64,000 bases of DNA from a virus (IMGVR_UViG_3300037851_000831:1-64000), one strand, 5' to 3'. Shown: positions 18,848 through 64,000, counted from the first letter of the stretch. Numbers and translations are program-made. The notes: a model not told the origin generated them from the sequence alone.

Positions 18848-19075
18848 CTACTTCGCCTCGTCGAGCATTCGCTTGACTTCGATGGCAGCGTCACGCCATC
18901 CGGCAGGGCTGAAGAATCCCGCTGCCCCACCAAGTTCCTCCTTGACTTCCTCCACGGTGAGCGACGCCACGTGCGACACGTAGTTGTCAATAGCCGTGAG
19001 GAGCACAGCCTTCACCATGATGTGTTCCATCTCGGCGAGTTGCTTGAGTACCGGTTTCTTTGATTTCTTTGCCAT
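18848..19075 (-). CDS. Hypothetical protein
   Basis: ATG 35 nt after TTGACT. Confidence 0.7.
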   Translation of the reverse strand: MAKKSKKPVLKQLAEMEHIMVKAVLLTAIDNYVSHVASLTVEEVKEELGGAAGFFSPAGWRDAAIEVKRMLDEAK

Positions 19076-19106
19076 GTGAAGGATTAGATCAGGAATTAAA
19101 GAAAAG

Positions 19107-19355
19107 TCAAGCGCCCACGAGATATTTTTCCGCCTCACGATGAACAATTGAGAGGAGGATTTCCGATTGGTACCGGTCGAGTTCCGTTCCCTTCATGTAA
19201 ATGAAAGCAAGATTGATTGCTTTCAATCCGCCCTCGATCTGTGCGGGAGTGGGATTCTTTTTGATCGTGGCGATGAATTCCGCCGCCAACTGCTTGAATC
19301 CCCGCCAATCGTGTGTGAACGCTTCTTCCACGAGAAAGGTTTGTTCGGCTGTCAT
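19107..19355 (-). CDS. Hypothetical protein
   Basis: Promoter-linked ATG; stop overlaps next -35. Confidence 0.7.
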   Translation of the reverse strand: MTAEQTFLVEEAFTHDWRGFKQLAAEFIATIKKNPTPAQIEGGLKAINLAFIYMKGTELDRYQSEILLSIVHREAEKYLVGA

Positions 19356-19411
19356 GGGGAGAATCTTGACGGATTTTCTTTAAGTTGTCAAGTCTTGCAG
19401 CAAAGATTTTT

Positions 19412-19774
19412 TTAGATCATTCCCAGCACGAGCAACCATGAAGGAGAGCCATCATCACCGTGACCATCCGGCTCACAACGCTTGCCCGTGACCGACTTGG
19501 CAACGCCATCGAACGACCAACGCTCAAGAGTATTCACGGAAGGTGTCTTGAAGAAAACACTGAACTTGCGGGTCTTGACCACGATGTTCTTATCAGCGAT
19601 CACACCGGGCGAGAGTTCCGTTCCCTCTGCGATGGTGACTTCGATGGCATCAACGGGCACGGTTGGCGTGCTCGCGGGATAGAGTTTGATGAAGGAAGCC
19701 TTAGCCTTGACGCCAGCGGAGATAACCTGCTGCGTATCCTTGATCGTGATGTTACGGCGGAATGTGACGTTCAT
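19412..19774 (-). CDS. Hypothetical phage protein (CEPDG...SWL)
   Basis: Promoter-linked ATG. Confidence 0.75.
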   Translation of the reverse strand: MNVTFRRNITIKDTQQVISAGVKAKASFIKLYPASTPTVPVDAIEVTIAEGTELSPGVIADKNIVVKTRKFSVFFKTPSVNTLERWSFDGVAKSVTGKRCEPDGHGDDGSPSWLLVLGMI

Positions 19775-19808
19775 GTTGCCGCCTATTAGATCAGGATTCT
19801 AAAAAAAG

Positions 19809-20135
19809 TCAAGCGATTCGCTCGATTTTTTTCAAACTTCCCAACTCCAACACGCGAAGGTCACCGATCAACTCTGACCAACAACTCGTCTCAACCACGC
19901 GCTCGTCGCCGAGAGTGGTTGTCAAGAGAAACTTCATCGGCTTGTTGTCAAAGGAAGTGCAAACGATTTCAATGCCGCCTTTGTGCGTGAATCGTGGAGG
20001 ATACTCGTTGACAAGTTCCACGCTTCCCCAGCAACCGAAATCAGTGTTCCACTCGTTGTCTCTCGCCACTTCGTATAGTTTGCCTTCGATGCGAACTATC
20101 CAGCCTTTCTTCAAGGCGATGCCGATGTTTTTCAC
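19809..20135 (-). CDS. Hypothetical protein
   Basis: GTG overlapping upstream stop; stop overlaps next -35. Confidence 0.65.
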   Translation of the reverse strand: MKNIGIALKKGWIVRIEGKLYEVARDNEWNTDFGCWGSVELVNEYPPRFTHKGGIEIVCTSFDNKPMKFLLTTTLGDERVVETSCWSELIGDLRVLELGSLKKIERIA

Positions 20136-20500
20136 AGGATTTTAATTACGTCGGGGTCTACCGGAAGTTGCTTCTTGGCGAAGACGTAGCCATCATCCGT
20201 GCGCGTGCCAAGCGAGCCGTTCGAATACTTGATCAGGTGAGGATATGCACGAGTGCAACCATCCTTGTTCGGCCCAACGTACTCAGCAACTTCACCATTG
20301 CGAAGGAGGAGTTTCTGCCCCGGCTTGCAAGTGGTCATATCAACCACATGCTCGTCGAACGTGAGTTCGTCGCGAAGTTCTTCCTCTCGCTTCAGTTGAA
20401 ACGTGCCACCATGACGGTACCACACATCGTTGCTGTTCTCGGTTGCCGGGCTGGTATCAAGTTCCCATCCCGCTGCGGCTGCTGCGCGTTCGAAGTTCAT
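20132..20500 (-). CDS. Hypothetical protein
   Basis: Promoter-linked ATG. Confidence 0.75.
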   Translation of the reverse strand: MNFERAAAAAGWELDTSPATENSNDVWYRHGGTFQLKREEELRDELTFDEHVVDMTTCKPGQKLLLRNGEVAEYVGPNKDGCTRAYPHLIKYSNGSLGTRTDDGYVFAKKQLPVDPDVIKIL

Positions 20501-20551
20501 GGCGTGAAGTAGATCAGGATTTTTTTATTTGTCAAGCCTCTCGGCTCTGAA

Positions 20552-61565: not shown

Positions 61566-62107
61566 CGCCCCGAAAAGAACCAAACGCAATCTTCCTCGAC
61601 CTCGACGAAACCATTCTGAACACTGCGTTCGGTCCTGGAAATAGTAAGAGCCGAACGTACGTGAAGATCGGTGATGGACGCTACGGCGCTATTCAGCGAC
61701 CGGGAACCAAGGAGTTTCTTGCAGATATTAGGTCTGCTGGATTGCCTCTTTACGCGCTCACATACGCAACACTCGACTATGCGCTGATGTGGAACTCTGT
61801 GTTCGAATGGGGTTTCAATGAAAGCGACATGTTCGCACGCGAACACTTGCATGAATCGCGGTTGGAAAAACCGCCTGAGTGCATTCCTCTTCTCATTGAT
61901 GACCTACCTGATACCGAGCCTGCGATCCAATTAAAACGGAGTTGGTTGATGACCCGTGGTGGCATTGTCTATCACTGGCAACCCACCCCGTTCTACGGTC
62001 ATGCGAACACTCATCCGTTAACTTTCGCTGAACTGAAGGATAAGATGGGCTCATTACAGGAGATGCCGTATCATGAACAGAGGCGCTCTAGTATGTGGGG
62101 TTGGTAA
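61544..62107 (+). CDS. HAD-superfamily phosphatase (FCP1/NIF-like)
   Basis: FLDLDET (DxDxT), RPG..EFL, LIDD. Confidence 0.85.
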   Translation: MDDTSQLTPRKEPNAIFLDLDETILNTAFGPGNSKSRTYVKIGDGRYGAIQRPGTKEFLADIRSAGLPLYALTYATLDYALMWNSVFEWGFNESDMFAREHLHESRLEKPPECIPLLIDDLPDTEPAIQLKRSWLMTRGGIVYHWQPTPFYGHANTHPLTFAELKDKMGSLQEMPYHEQRRSSMWGW

Positions 62108-62176
62108 ATAAAAAAACACCCTACAGCAAATCTTTGATGGGGAGAGATATATTTATTCGCGTAAGCCCGCCCCACA

Positions 62177-62491
62177 ATGTTCAAGCGAATCCGTCAGATA
62201 CTATTCTCATTCAATATCCGTTCGCAATACCGATCATTCATTCAACAACTTGATGAGATGAAGGAGCGAGCACTGGAACTCCGCAGTACTAGAGACCTCG
62301 ACGACCTAAAGCACAAGGCAGAAAACGTCATTCAACGGTATAAAAATCAACCCAACATCCCGGAATACAAACTGGCATGTTGGGTTTATTCTGAATGCCA
62401 ATCGACCATTGATGTAATCGAATCGGGTTCCTCCCACTCTTACAAAGAAACTTTCCTGAGAACGCTTGACAACTCTCCTGCACACGGTTAA
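62177..62491 (+). CDS. Hypothetical protein
   Basis: Preceded by ATATTTAT. Confidence 0.65.
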   Translation: MFKRIRQILFSFNIRSQYRSFIQQLDEMKERALELRSTRDLDDLKHKAENVIQRYKNQPNIPEYKLACWVYSECQSTIDVIESGSSHSYKETFLRTLDNSPAHG

Positions 62492-62494
62492 TGT

Positions 62495-62857
62495 GTGGGA
62501 ATGCAATCAGGAGACCAATTCGATCCGTGGGGTAAGCCAGCCTTCAGACAAGGCACTTACACGATGCACTATGTCTCTGCAACGGGTGAATATACGCCCG
62601 TAACCAAACTGTATCATGCACAGCGAGTAGGTAAGCGCAATACGCCGTTGAGCAAGAGCACGTTGATGAGCATGGCTCTTACCCGTGGCGATCATGACAT
62701 GATGACACGTTCGGCACTCATCATCGTCGAATACAGAAAGAACTTCCACGTGATCAAGAGTCGCTATGAGCGTGACCGCATCAGTGGCGCGGTTGAATTC
62801 CTCAAACCCTATCTCTCCTACTACATTCGCCGCTACATCAACAATCCTCAGCCATGA
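62495..62857 (+). CDS. Hypothetical protein
   Basis: 120 aa ORF. Confidence 0.6.
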   Translation: MGMQSGDQFDPWGKPAFRQGTYTMHYVSATGEYTPVTKLYHAQRVGKRNTPLSKSTLMSMALTRGDHDMMTRSALIIVEYRKNFHVIKSRYERDRISGAVEFLKPYLSYYIRRYINNPQP

Positions 62858-63057
62858 GCGTGATCCGACATATTCTGAAGGGTTTCTGGAATCCAGTGGG
62901 TGCTGTGGCAGACGTTACCCGCGACCCTGAGATGGGAACTGTGGGAAAGGTTGCGACTAGCGCCTTCATCGTTGGCTGTCACCAAGAAGAAGACCCATAC
63001 CCCGAGGAAGGAACTCCAATGGAACGCCTTCAGTGGGCGATCCGAAACCGGCCTTAA
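62854..63057 (+). CDS. Hypothetical protein
   Basis: ATGA overlap; hairpin terminator ~63073-63115 follows. Confidence 0.6.
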   Translation: MSVIRHILKGFWNPVGAVADVTRDPEMGTVGKVATSAFIVGCHQEEDPYPEEGTPMERLQWAIRNRP

Positions 63058-63397
63058 GTACTCTGTACTCGATCCCGCCCCGACCTCCTACGGTCGGGCG
63101 GGCTCGTTTGTTTTTGAATAGGCTCGCTCACTGCGTTCGCTCGGAAGTACAGATAAGTACAAAAGTACAGGACGAAAAATCCGGATAAAAGAATTCTTTC
63201 GTTTTCTTTATCAGCAGGGCTTGACATTTTCAGAGAAGTTGTTATCACTGAATTCAACATCGTGATACAGTTCACAACTGGTGGCGAGAGGGTAGGGGAC
63301 CGGAGGCTGGACATATTCATTCAACCATCCAATTTGTAAATCTTTCAGTGGGCTATTGACTTTTTCTTAATCAGTGTCATGATTCACCTAATCTTTT

Positions 63398-64000
63398 ATG
63401 GGCACCACCTACATTCCTGTCGCATACCAACTTCCTCTCCCGAATCCAATTCGTGATGGTGTGGACTTCAGTGGTCTTTTAACTCCTCAGTGGAACCACG
63501 CGAAGAAGTTGCTGGACTCAATCTTCCTTAATGGTTGGGCAAGTGACTTCAGTACAACTGGTACTGGTAAGACGTACGTCGCCGCATGGGTGGCGAAGTT
63601 CGTCAATGCCCCGACCTTCATCGTCGCTCCGAAGGCAGTCATCCCGTCGTGGAACAAGGTTCTCACAGCCTTCGGTATTAAAGCAATTGTGATCAATTAT
63701 GAGAAGTTGGTGCGAGGGAACACCAAGTTCGTCAAGCGCAAGCATGTGAAAGACCCGCGCAATCACAACACGAAGGAAGCCGAGAAGATCAAGAAAATCC
63801 TTCGGTGGCGTCTGCCTGCCAATGCATTCATCATCTTTGATGAATCGCATAAGTGCAAGGGCTTCAAGTCTCTCAATTCAGAAATGCTCATGTCTGCGAA
63901 GGATCAGGGATACCGCTTCCTGACCGTCTCAGCGACCCAAGCGTTCAGCCCCATCGACATGTTCGTGTATGGCTGGATCATCGGTCAACACAAGTTCTAC
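63398..64000 (+). CDS. Superfamily 2 (SNF2-like) helicase, 3' truncated by window (not in ORF track)
   Basis: DFSTTGTGKT Walker A, INYEKL, IIFDESHK Walker B, SAT motif III. Confidence 0.9.
   Translation, partial: MGTTYIPVAYQLPLPNPIRDGVDFSGLLTPQWNHAKKLLDSIFLNGWASDFSTTGTGKTYVAAWVAKFVNAPTFIVAPKAVIPSWNKVLTAFGIKAIVINYEKLVRGNTKFVKRKHVKDPRNHNTKEAEKIKKILRWRLPANAFIIFDESHKCKGFKSLNSEMLMSAKDQGYRFLTVSATQAFSPIDMFVYGWIIGQHKFY

What the first reader, a model, noticed from the sequence alone, without database searches (positions are those of the whole stretch)
18848..63400. Cassette-like array of promoter + leaderless gene modules joined at the -35 box
Seen: about 60 promoters, usually with the ATG 34-37 nt from TTGAC and no SD. 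The upstream gene often ends inside or right next to the following -35: AAG GCT TGA C gives unrelated proteins the same KA* end (20814, 24773, 25351, 28761, 29191, 35935, 38081, 49836). Others end in A*, H* or S*, or read through (GLTS*, ALTN*, GLDFLK*). Promoter blocks are identical between distant modules: GTTGACGGATTTCTTTTAACTTGTCAA at ~25328, 27376, 28140, 38452, and a ~28 bp block including first codons at ~20495 and ~20777. Established: PeSL promoter elements mediate modular shuffling in T4-type phages. Inference: recombination at these repeats captures and shuffles genes in an integron-like way, with the repeat donating the stop codon. No integrase is visible in the window.
Basis: partly seen in the sequence, partly recalled or inferred. 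Interest (0 to 1): 0.78.

Follow-up and report, generated by a model that had tools for sequence, protein, structure and literature searches.

The report
Leaderless early-promoter gene cassettes, T4-like phage
Half a genome of an uncultured freshwater T4-like phage carries about 60 near-identical bacterial-type promoters, each placed so that its message should begin at the gene's start codon and often supplying the previous gene's stop codon; related phages swap genes at these promoters, so this is a leaderless variant of the PeSL shuffling cassettes already known in T4-type phages.

Summary
The window is the first 64 kb of a 96.8-kb IMG/VR phage fragment, about 47% complete, from a distant T4-type myovirus. 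From 18.8 to 65.7 kb it holds at least 61 sigma70-type promoters. Each has an A/T tract, (A)AGGC-TTGAC, a 16-17-nt A/T spacer and a TG-extended yAnnnT -10. In 47 of them the ATG follows 6-7 nt after the -10. Shine-Dalgarno (SD) motifs are at background level across the whole genome. Genes without their own promoter are tightly coupled to the gene before.

The TGA inside TTGAC is the upstream gene's stop in 14 robust cases, against 3 read-throughs. The same design occurs in 22 of 71 related metagenomic loci.

In those relatives, homology breaks at the edges of the promoter core. Module order differs (L025 versus L026/L023), and one crossover lies inside the core. Promoters are also gained or lost between the same two genes.

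So shuffling at the promoters and donation of the stop codon are supported, by evidence from relatives. The integron analogy is not: there is no integrase, no attC-like site, and every cassette has its own promoter. The closest known system is the PeSL cassette, but these units lack the SD and mostly lack the stem-loop. This scan has reported the same class before on other phage DNA. No transcription start or rearranged form was shown for this genome.

The parts
18848..55238 (-). Minus-strand early-gene array: about 50 promoter units and about 95 ORFs, mostly without a known family
   Evidence: PWM scan. A strand-restricted gene model covers 89% of the region. Pfam finds almost nothing apart from two RNA ligases, two radical-SAM proteins and a cell-wall hydrolase.
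57063..64000 (+). Plus-strand early array, with 10 promoter units inside the window. It continues to about 65.7 kb and includes a UvsW/SNF2-like helicase that starts at 63398.
20780..20845 (-). Example unit: A/T tract, AAGGC, -35 TTGAC (20813-20817), a 16-17-nt spacer, a TG-extended -10 (TCTACT) and the ATG at 20780-20782. The TGA at 20814-20816 ends the upstream ORF (FSKA*).
19107..19109 (-). Upstream-gene stop is the TGA inside the -35 (…GA*)
19809..19811 (-). Stop inside the -35 (…IA*)
21189..21191 (-). Stop inside the -35 (…WA*)
24773..24775 (-). Stop inside the -35 (…FAKA*). The homologue P0126 ends …LFFR*.
25351..25353 (-). Stop inside the -35 (…PKKA*)
28761..28763 (-). Stop inside the -35 (…AQKA*)
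29191..29193 (-). Stop inside the -35 (…DAKA*)
31796..31798 (-). Stop inside the -35 (…VEAA*). In relatives the homologues end KIGA*, SKVA*, KATV* or read through as GLTSLNG*.
35935..35937 (-). Stop inside the -35 (…MQKA*)
37337..37339 (-). Stop inside the -35 (…STH*)
38081..38083 (-). Stop inside the -35 (…ARKA*)
41410..41412 (-). Stop inside the -35 (…DAS*)
49836..49838 (-). Stop inside the -35 (…LLVKA*). The homologues end …AAVA*, …LAKA* and …AAEN*.
28154..28168 (-). ORF reads through the -35 into the spacer (GLTS*)
42544..42558 (-). ORF reads through the -35 (ALTN*)
46313..46333 (-). ORF reads through the -35 (GLDFLK*)
25328..25354 (-). Family-B promoter core, 27 nt, identical to the copies at 27376-27402, 28139-28165 and 38452-38478. 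TTGAC and GTCAA form a 5-nt inverted repeat across the spacer.
   Evidence: Logan contigs break at these repeats.
27376..27402 (-). Family-B promoter core, identical copy
28139..28165 (-). Family-B promoter core, identical copy
38452..38478 (-). Family-B promoter core, identical copy
20491..20538 (-). Promoter that shares 31 identical nt (spacer 3' half, -10 and the first three codons ATG AAC TTC) with the unit at 20773-20820. That unit is in turn identical to the one at 57841 from -5 to +28, so 20817 looks chimeric.
48329..49839 (-). Promoter-driven stretch with no credible ORF, holding tRNA-Gly(TCC) at 48539-48612. It shows that the same promoter unit also heads RNA genes.
32176..32204 (-). 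One of the few strong intrinsic terminators, placed directly before a promoter (32160). Another lies at 37055-37090.

Best explanation
This is the early (hyperplastic) region of an uncultured freshwater T4-type phage. It is built from about 60 copies of one compact stop-promoter-start joint. Each joint is a strong host sigma70-type promoter with an A/T-rich UP-like tract, an extended -35 ((A)AGGC-TTGAC), a 16-17-nt A/T spacer and a TG-extended -10. The A of the ATG is the seventh or eighth base after the -10, so the mRNA should start at its own start codon, that is, leaderless (inferred from geometry). No gene in the genome uses an SD. A gene either heads its own transcript or is translationally coupled to the gene before it, with overlap or a gap of at most 8 nt. 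That explains why nearly every gene, or small gene group, needs its own promoter. Because almost no other intergenic DNA remains, the upstream gene runs into the promoter. In about a quarter of units the TGA within TTGAC is its stop, and the last 2-8 residues are simply the translated promoter (KA*). The conserved core, about -7 to +28, is also the joint at which unrelated genes meet. In related phages, modules are replaced and reordered with homology breaks at the core's two edges, and one crossover lies inside it. The most likely mechanism is homologous recombination between promoter copies, as shown for PeSLs in T4-type phages, not site-specific integron-type capture. Shown: the sequence architecture, the statistics, conservation across the clade, and the junction positions in relatives. 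Inferred: the transcription start, the early timing, and the recombination mechanism.
For: Motif enrichment is shown. The ATG offset is 35-36 in 40 units. SD is at background: 0% for promoter-anchored genes, 16% for internal early genes, 14% for late genes and 13% at random positions. Gap sizes are bimodal, either 8 nt or less, or 18-65 nt with a promoter. The stop falls in the -35 in 14 cases against 3 read-throughs, where 1:2 is expected. The model-free count gives 8 versus 3 in G000 (p=0.009) and 47 versus 32 in relatives (p=2e-6). T4-type affinity rests on the sheath, about 47% identical to Microcystis phage Mel-JY01, and on an ATATTTAT(A) motif 3-6 nt before the ATG of late genes. The architecture is clade-wide: 173 pattern matches against 5 for the control in 520 kb, 22 of 71 loci with at least 3 copies, and an ATG offset peak at 34-35. 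For L015 versus L020, 11 of 32 homology ends lie within 30 nt of a -35 (3.3 expected, 0 of 2000 randomisations), clustered at -7 to -2 and +25 to +27. Base-level junctions are shown. L026 and L025 share a 223-nt block at 100% identity that ends inside the core just after TTGACATTA, and the module order is 9-10-1-2 versus 9-1-9'-10-2. L056 and L076 have the same two genes with and without a 26-nt promoter core. Three G000 array genes lie next to the helicase in relatives but 18-32 kb away on the other strand in G000. The PeSL precedent is PMC2839356 and PMC4122927.
Against: No transcription start or RNA data exist for this phage; no RNA run holds it. No close relative of G000 itself could be compared, so all junction evidence comes from phages whose helicase is 37-44% identical. 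In the source run, the only joints are 21-32-nt repeat matches. Intergenic DNA here is almost nothing but promoter, so selection alone would also place surviving breakpoints there. BLAST extends through the conserved core, so crossovers cannot be located more finely than the core, except in the L025/L026 case. Shared exact identity between copies is short, at most 33 nt. Within G000 the promoter halves co-vary (families A and B), with no four-combination mixing and only one weak paralogous gene pair. Recombination among G000's own copies is therefore not evident. In the L008/L010/L012 sublineage the breakpoint enrichment is weak. No RecA/UvsX gene lies on the fragment, but the fragment is only about 47% of the genome.
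Confidence: 0.7

Rival explanations
1. Compaction plus selection only. The units are simply promoters required one per gene because translation is leaderless. Genes were exchanged by illegitimate recombination anywhere, and only junctions at gene boundaries survive. Since the boundaries are nothing but promoter, breakpoints look promoter-associated. The stop inside the -35 is the limit of squeezing out intergenic DNA, not a product of recombination.
For: Intergenic DNA equals promoter: gaps of 18-65 nt with a mode at 31 nt. AAGGC is part of the promoter whether or not it is translated. One recent insertion in L026 used an ATGAA microhomology at a start codon with no promoter. G000's promoter families are coherent rather than scrambled. 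The excess of the TGA frame over read-through is what selection for the shortest added tail would give.
Against: The L025/L026 switch from 100% to 77% identity lies inside the shared core sequence, which is the signature of homologous exchange. The same gene keeps a GCT-TGA end next to different downstream genes in G000, L005 and L056. Spacer positions are identical over 27-33 nt between distant units beside unrelated genes. PeSL-mediated exchange has been shown experimentally in T4-type phages (PMC2839356).
Confidence: 0.22
2. Integron-like site-specific capture. A dedicated recombinase, encoded elsewhere in the genome, inserts and excises promoter-gene cassettes at GGCTTGAC.
For: The array looks cassette-like, and about half of the genome is missing.
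Against: No tyrosine integrase is on the fragment. The units have no attC-like imperfect inverted repeats, and most are no more structured than random windows. Each cassette carries its own promoter, the opposite of integron cassettes. Junctions fall at both edges of the core and at ATG microhomology rather than at one fixed cleavage point.
Confidence: 0.03
3. The repeat is not a host-type promoter. It could be an operator for a phage regulator, or an RNA-level signal for processing or translation, that merely resembles TTGAC-N17-TAnnnT.
For: Many -10 hexamers are weak (TCTACT, CAACCT), so a generic sigma70 scan finds no excess. Family B is palindromic (TTGAC…GTCAA). Spacers are unusually conserved.
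Against: The full geometry is present: -35, a 16-17-nt spacer, A2 and T6 of the -10, a TG extension and an upstream A/T tract. Sister lineages carry perfect TGGTATAAT in the same register, with the ATG 6 nt later. The same unit heads a tRNA/ncRNA locus. The units are strand-consistent with the genes and switch strand at 56-57 kb.
Confidence: 0.05

Closest known systems
PeSLs (promoter-early stem-loops) of T4-type phages: RB49/phi1, T4/PST and KVP40/nt-1 (Arbiol et al. 2010, PMC2839356; Comeau et al. 2014, PMC4122927)
   Same: A T4-type phage with about 50-60 copies per genome of a strong sigma70-like early promoter that has an A/T-rich upstream tract. The upstream gene's stop lies in that tract. 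The copies are concentrated in a hyperplastic region of small ORFans. Gene replacements and indels between relatives are bounded by the elements, and homologous exchange between copies is the proposed mechanism.
   Different: There is no Shine-Dalgarno or leader: the ATG sits at the predicted transcription start. A stem-loop terminator is present in only about 13 of 61 units, and terminators are not enriched. The unit is shorter, with a core of about 35 nt and a total of about 65 nt, against about 100 nt for a PeSL. The -35 hexamer itself serves as the stop codon in about a quarter of units. Minicircles and promoter activity have not been tested.
Leaderless genes of bacteria (a TANNNT -10 about 10 nt before the start codon; abundant in Deinococcus-Thermus and Actinobacteria; Zheng et al. 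2011, PMC3160421) and the lambda cI mRNA from PRM
   Same: A -10 element 6-7 nt before the ATG and no SD. ATG is the start at all 47 promoter-anchored genes, although the model only looked for ATG.
   Different: Here the arrangement applies to essentially a whole phage early region, and apparently to the late genes too, with a full -35 and UP-like promoter. The host is unknown.
Integron gene-cassette arrays
   Same: A same-strand array of small, mostly unknown genes separated by a repeated element, with variable content between relatives.
   Different: There is no IntI and no attC. Each cassette has its own promoter rather than sharing one Pc promoter. Crossover points are variable.

Membership tests
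PeSL (promoter-early stem-loop) cassettes | [quoted passage not shown] | tested here: met
   The PWM consensus has an A/T tract, AAGGC-TTGAC, a 16-17-nt spacer and a TG-extended yAnnnT. This is tested at sequence level only; promoter activity was not tested.
PeSL (promoter-early stem-loop) cassettes | A stable stem-loop (terminator/attenuator) within or next to the promoter | tested here: not met
   The mean folding energy of the units is no lower than that of random windows. Only 13 of 61 units have z<-2. Terminator-like sites number 31 against 22.5+-5.4 in shuffles.
PeSL (promoter-early stem-loop) cassettes | Shine-Dalgarno sequence and start codon at the 3' end of the element | tested here: not met
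   None of the 47 promoter-anchored genes has an SD core. The ATG lies 6-7 nt after the -10.
PeSL (promoter-early stem-loop) cassettes | Concentrated in hyperplastic regions of a T4-type genome, next to ORFans | tested here: met
   The units are confined to 19-66 kb. Most genes there have no Pfam family. The sheath is T4-type.
PeSL (promoter-early stem-loop) cassettes | Insertions, deletions and replacements between related phages bounded by the elements | tested here: met
   Met in relatives: L015/L020, L025/L026/L023 and L056/L076. It could not be tested for G000 itself because no close relative was retrievable.
PeSL (promoter-early stem-loop) cassettes | Formation of excised minicircles by exchange between neighbouring elements | not testable with these tools
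   Only assembled contigs of one run were available. Their joints are 21-32-nt repeat matches.
Integron | IntI-type tyrosine recombinase next to the array | tested here: not met
   PF00589 has no match on the 96.8-kb record, and the control genomes all match. The record is about 47% complete.
Integron | attC recombination sites (imperfect inverted repeats that fold) at cassette ends | tested here: not met
   The repeats are promoters. No enriched structure was found.
Integron | Promoterless cassettes expressed from one common promoter | tested here: not met
   About one promoter per 0.8 kb, so each gene or small gene group has its own.
Leaderless mRNA genes | A -10 (TANNNT) element placed so that transcription starts at or next to the start codon, with no SD | tested here: met
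   The ATG offset is 35-36 in 40 units. SD is absent. The same geometry is seen in relatives.
Leaderless mRNA genes | Mapped 5' end at the A of the AUG | not testable with these tools
   No RNA run holds this DNA.

The most novel reading that the evidence does not exclude
The roughly 35-nt promoter core may be a portable, frame-tolerant stop-promoter-start adaptor that is itself the mobile unit. It can appear or disappear between two conserved genes (L056 versus L076). It terminates whatever ORF precedes it through the TGA in its -35. It also lets any ORF that begins with ATG be expressed without a ribosome-binding site. A whole, widespread clade of uncultured T4-like phages would then use it as a general plug-in system for gene capture and shuffling, in hosts that translate leaderless mRNAs.
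Probability: 0.3. Interest if true: 0.7.

Novelty: new variant of a known kind. Interest (0 to 1): 0.55.

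Why it matters
This would extend PeSL-type modular shuffling from cultured coliphages and vibriophages to a broad uncultured clade found in lake, sediment, peat and groundwater samples. It also shows a stripped-down form in which one short element is at once the terminator of translation, the promoter and the start of translation. 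The strict one-promoter-per-gene layout follows from leaderless translation, which links genome architecture to the host's mode of translation initiation. The arrangement also predicts short C-terminal tails on many phage proteins that are dictated by the promoter. That matters for annotating such proteins and for interpreting conserved termini. Finally, the units are compact, strong, RBS-free expression cassettes that could be tested directly.

Tried and rejected
Megablast of 20 kb of the array against 50,697 phage records gave no match.

An exact promoter pattern in IMG/VR gave no match.

The Rnl1-like ligase found only a 27%-GC phage (L001) with no such promoters.

As a result, the contigs of the closest homologues could not be fetched: the helicase homologues P0002/P0003 at 77-78% identity, and P0122, P0123 and P0126 at 46-53%.

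Viral-collection scans with the 291-aa and 181-aa families found nothing.

Sequencing runs: one DNA holder, a freshwater metagenome that is probably the source sample, and no RNA holder listed.

Laying that run's contigs showed only contig breaks and 21-32-nt joints at the repeats, which is no evidence for or against rearranged forms.

Microcystis phage Mel-JY01, the closest cultured sheath relative, has no copy of the pattern, so the architecture cannot be tied to a host that way.

The four-combination test for mosaic promoters within G000 was negative.

Breakpoint enrichment was not significant in the L008/L010/L012 sublineage.

A generic sigma70 consensus scan does not pick these promoters out, finding 12 against 11.5 in shuffles, because the -10 hexamers deviate from TATAAT.

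RecA/UvsX was not found on the fragment.

Full report
WHAT THE DNA IS. The window is bases 1-64000 of a single 96,782-bp contig. It is an IMG/VR virus record, linear, and CheckV estimates it at about 47% complete. It encodes a 989-aa tail sheath. The best cultured match for that sheath is Microcystis phage Mel-JY01 at about 47% identity, followed by Flavobacterium 'immuto' phages, Rhodothermus RM378 and classical T4-like phages. This makes it a distant T4-type myovirus. One freshwater metagenome run holds it.

THE OBSERVATION. GGCTTGAC occurs 44 times against 1.8 expected. TTGAC-N30-ATG occurs 35 times against 2.9. AAGGCTTGAC occurs 16 times against 0.16. A PWM built from the clear copies finds 57 sites. 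With curation this becomes 61 units: 50 on the minus strand between 19110 and 55230, and 11 on the plus strand between 57063 and 65566, diverging from about 56-57 kb. Two further copies lie at 81.8 and 89.6 kb.

The consensus unit has an A/T tract about 12-22 nt upstream of the -35, then (A)AGGC, TTGAC(T/A), a 16-17-nt A/T-rich spacer, TGn, a yAnnnT hexamer, 6-7 nt and the ATG. The A of the ATG is 35 nt from the T of TTGAC in 31 units, 36 nt in 9, and 33-39 nt in 47. About 14 units have no ATG there. Those head a tRNA/ncRNA stretch (tRNA-Gly at 48539-48612), other ORF-free stretches, or a TTG start.

These are the eight KA* ends, the A*/H*/S* ends, the three read-throughs, the 27-nt block at four places, and the 31-nt block at 20491/20773 that includes the first three codons.

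HOW THE GENES ARE EXPRESSED (inference from geometry). A gene model restricted to the array's strand covers 89% of 18.7-57 kb with 97 ORFs, 47-50 of which begin at a promoter-anchored ATG. SD-like cores are at background everywhere: 0% before promoter-anchored genes, 16% before internal early genes, 14% before late genes and 13% at random positions.

Gene starts obey a two-way rule. Either the gene has its own promoter, with a gap of 18-65 nt to the upstream stop and a mode of 31 nt, or it abuts or overlaps the upstream stop, at -19 to +8 nt in 23 of 38 internal genes. This is what leaderless translation plus translational coupling would require, and it explains one promoter per 0.8 kb.

The structural genes carry a different motif, ATATTTAT(A), 3-6 nt before their ATG. 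The late genes therefore look leaderless as well. A TANNNT element about 10 nt before the start codon is the accepted in-silico signature of leaderless genes (PMC3160421). No RNA data exist, so the transcription start is not shown.

THE STOP CODON IN THE -35. Because the intergenic space is only the promoter, upstream ORFs run into it. Among the promoter sites scored, the upstream stop lies 13-60 nt before the -35 (in the A/T tract) at 21, within 12 nt at 11, and is the TGA of TTGAC in 14 robust cases. Only 3 ORFs read through. If frames were random, read-through should be twice as common as the TGA frame. A model-free count gives 8 versus 3 in G000 (p=0.009) and 47 versus 32 in relatives (p=2e-6).

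AAGGC belongs to the promoter. Seven of its 16 copies are not read as K-A-stop, and relatives have (a/g)(c/g)GC in the same place. KA* is therefore the promoter translated in one frame.

Homologues confirm that the tail is set by the junction. The family of 31796-32125 ends VEAA* (GCT-TGA-C), KIGA* (GCT-TGA-T), SKVA* (GCT-TGA-C)...EKGLTSLNG* (reading through GGC-TTG-ACT) and KATV* (no promoter). The 291-aa family ends ...LLVKA*...AAVA*...LAKA* and ...AAEN*. The 181-aa protein ends ...FFAKA* and its homologue ...LFFR*.

RELATIVES AND SHUFFLING. Using the UvsW/SNF2-like helicase (63398-64933) as an alignment query, 71 metagenome and 80 viral loci were retrieved.

The pattern [GC]CTTGAC-N28-31-ATG occurs 173 times in the 520 kb of metagenome loci, against 5 for a reversed control. 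Twenty-two loci carry at least 3 copies, and the ATG offset peaks at 34-35. One sublineage has perfect TGGTATAAT followed by 6 nt and the ATG. The design is therefore clade-wide across sediment, peat, groundwater and lake samples.

For L015 versus L020 (78% DNA identity), 11 of 32 homology ends lie within 30 nt of a -35. The expectation is 3.3, and 0 of 2000 randomisations reach 11. The ends cluster at -7 to -2 and +25 to +27. Base-level views show three pairs where identity is about 0.25 upstream and 0.9 from -7 onward. They also show pairs where the upstream gene and the core are conserved but the downstream gene is unrelated.

In L023/L025/L026 every gene has its own promoter, and the module order differs: 9-10-1-2-3-4-5 versus 9-1-9'-10-2-3-4. 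A 223-nt block that is 100% identical between L026 and L025 ends inside the promoter core just after TTGACATTA. Beyond that point the spacer, the -10 and the gene all differ. This is the signature of an exchange within the shared core.

L056 and L076 have the same two adjacent genes, with and without a 26-nt promoter core between them. Three G000 array genes lie next to the helicase in relatives but 18-32 kb away on the other strand in G000.

Not every event uses the promoter. A 175-nt ORF in L026 was inserted at an ATGAA microhomology with TAATG coupling and no promoter. Enrichment is weak in the L008/L010/L012 sublineage.

LIMITS. Intergenic DNA is almost entirely promoter, so selection alone would put surviving breakpoints there. 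BLAST also extends through the conserved core, so crossovers cannot be placed more finely than the core, except in the L025/L026 case.

Within G000 itself the evidence for recombination is thin. Exact identity between copies is at most 33 nt and confined to the core. The promoter halves co-vary as coherent families A and B with no four-combination mixing, and only one weak paralogous gene pair exists. The unit at 20817 does look chimeric, matching 57841 on its left and 20535 on its right. The contigs of the source run break at the repeats and show only 21-32-nt joints.

COMPARISON WITH KNOWN SYSTEMS. PeSLs are composed of a sigma70-like early promoter with an A/T-rich upstream tract, a stem-loop terminator and an SD plus start codon. 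There are about 52 per genome, in hyperplastic regions next to ORFans, and they bound the indels between RB49 and phi1 and form minicircles (PMC2839356). They were later extended to T4/PST and KVP40/nt-1 (PMC4122927).

The promoter, the location and the junction features are met here. The stem-loop is not: only 13 of 61 units have a significant hairpin, and terminators are not enriched. The SD is absent. This is therefore a leaderless, mostly stem-loop-free variant that works like a PeSL but is not a member by the published definition.

The integron analogy fails on all three defining features.

This scan has already reported the same class on other DNA, in several uncultured T4-like phages described as leaderless PeSL variants. 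Those notes agree with this reading but were not used as evidence.

VERDICT. This is a new variant of a known kind. Confidence is 0.7 for the combined reading: a leaderless early-promoter array whose core also serves as stop donor and recombination joint.

Noticed in passing
window 724-731, 3821-3828, 9892-9900, 12229-12264, 14808-14816, 18007-18014; also 68188, 87281 and 94072 on the contig: The motif ATATTTAT(A) occurs 13 times, where about 3 would be expected. It mostly sits 3-6 nt before the ATG of structural (late) genes on the same strand. It is probably the late promoter of this clade, comparable to T4's TATAAATA, and it suggests that late mRNAs are leaderless too. At 12229-12264 two copies face each other between divergent genes.
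   Followed up: partly
window 24741-24776, 57063-57140, 63221, contig 65566; L015 5142 and 12834; L020 6589 and 15273; L012 8831: Several promoters are followed by conserved RNA-like starts rather than an ATG: ...GTTGATGAGGCCG... and a G-rich ...AGTAGGGGACCGGAGCC-like element. These recur behind promoters in distant relatives, so they are probably small non-coding RNAs expressed from the same promoter unit.
   Followed up: partly
window 48329-49839 (minus strand): A 1.5-kb stretch driven by promoters has no credible ORF. ARAGORN and Rfam find only one tRNA there, tRNA-Gly(TCC) at 48539-48612.
   Followed up: partly
window 19000-20521 versus 20493-38999: In the source run, the Logan contig that covers the late region up to 20521 has a mean word depth of 11.6. 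All contigs of the array have about 21. This could reflect two co-occurring strains that share the early array but differ in the structural genes, or it could be an assembly effect.
   Followed up: no
window 38774-39877 and 47215-48291 (minus strand): There are two RNA ligases, one T4 Rnl1-like (PF09511) and one Rnl2-like (PF09414). The array also holds two radical-SAM proteins (27419-28129 and 32381-33166) and a SleB-type cell-wall hydrolase (44344-44790).
   Followed up: no
window 25328-25354 and its three identical copies: Family-B promoters are palindromic, with TTGAC and GTCAA 17 nt apart, and they have a poor -10 (CAACCT). They could double as an operator for a dimeric regulator or mark a separate temporal class.
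   Followed up: no
window 19812, 47160, 48329, 51053; 60032: A minority of units carry a hairpin that encloses the upstream A/T tract, for example TTGGGTG…CGCCCAA before 51053. This resembles the PeSL subclass whose stem-loop lies in the A/T-rich region.
   Followed up: partly
window 56992-57030 (minus strand): A further leaderless-type promoter (TTGAC-17-TAAACT-5-ATG) with a less A/T-rich spacer lies before the 247-aa gene at 56249-56992. My filter missed it, so the count of 61 units is a minimum.
   Followed up: no
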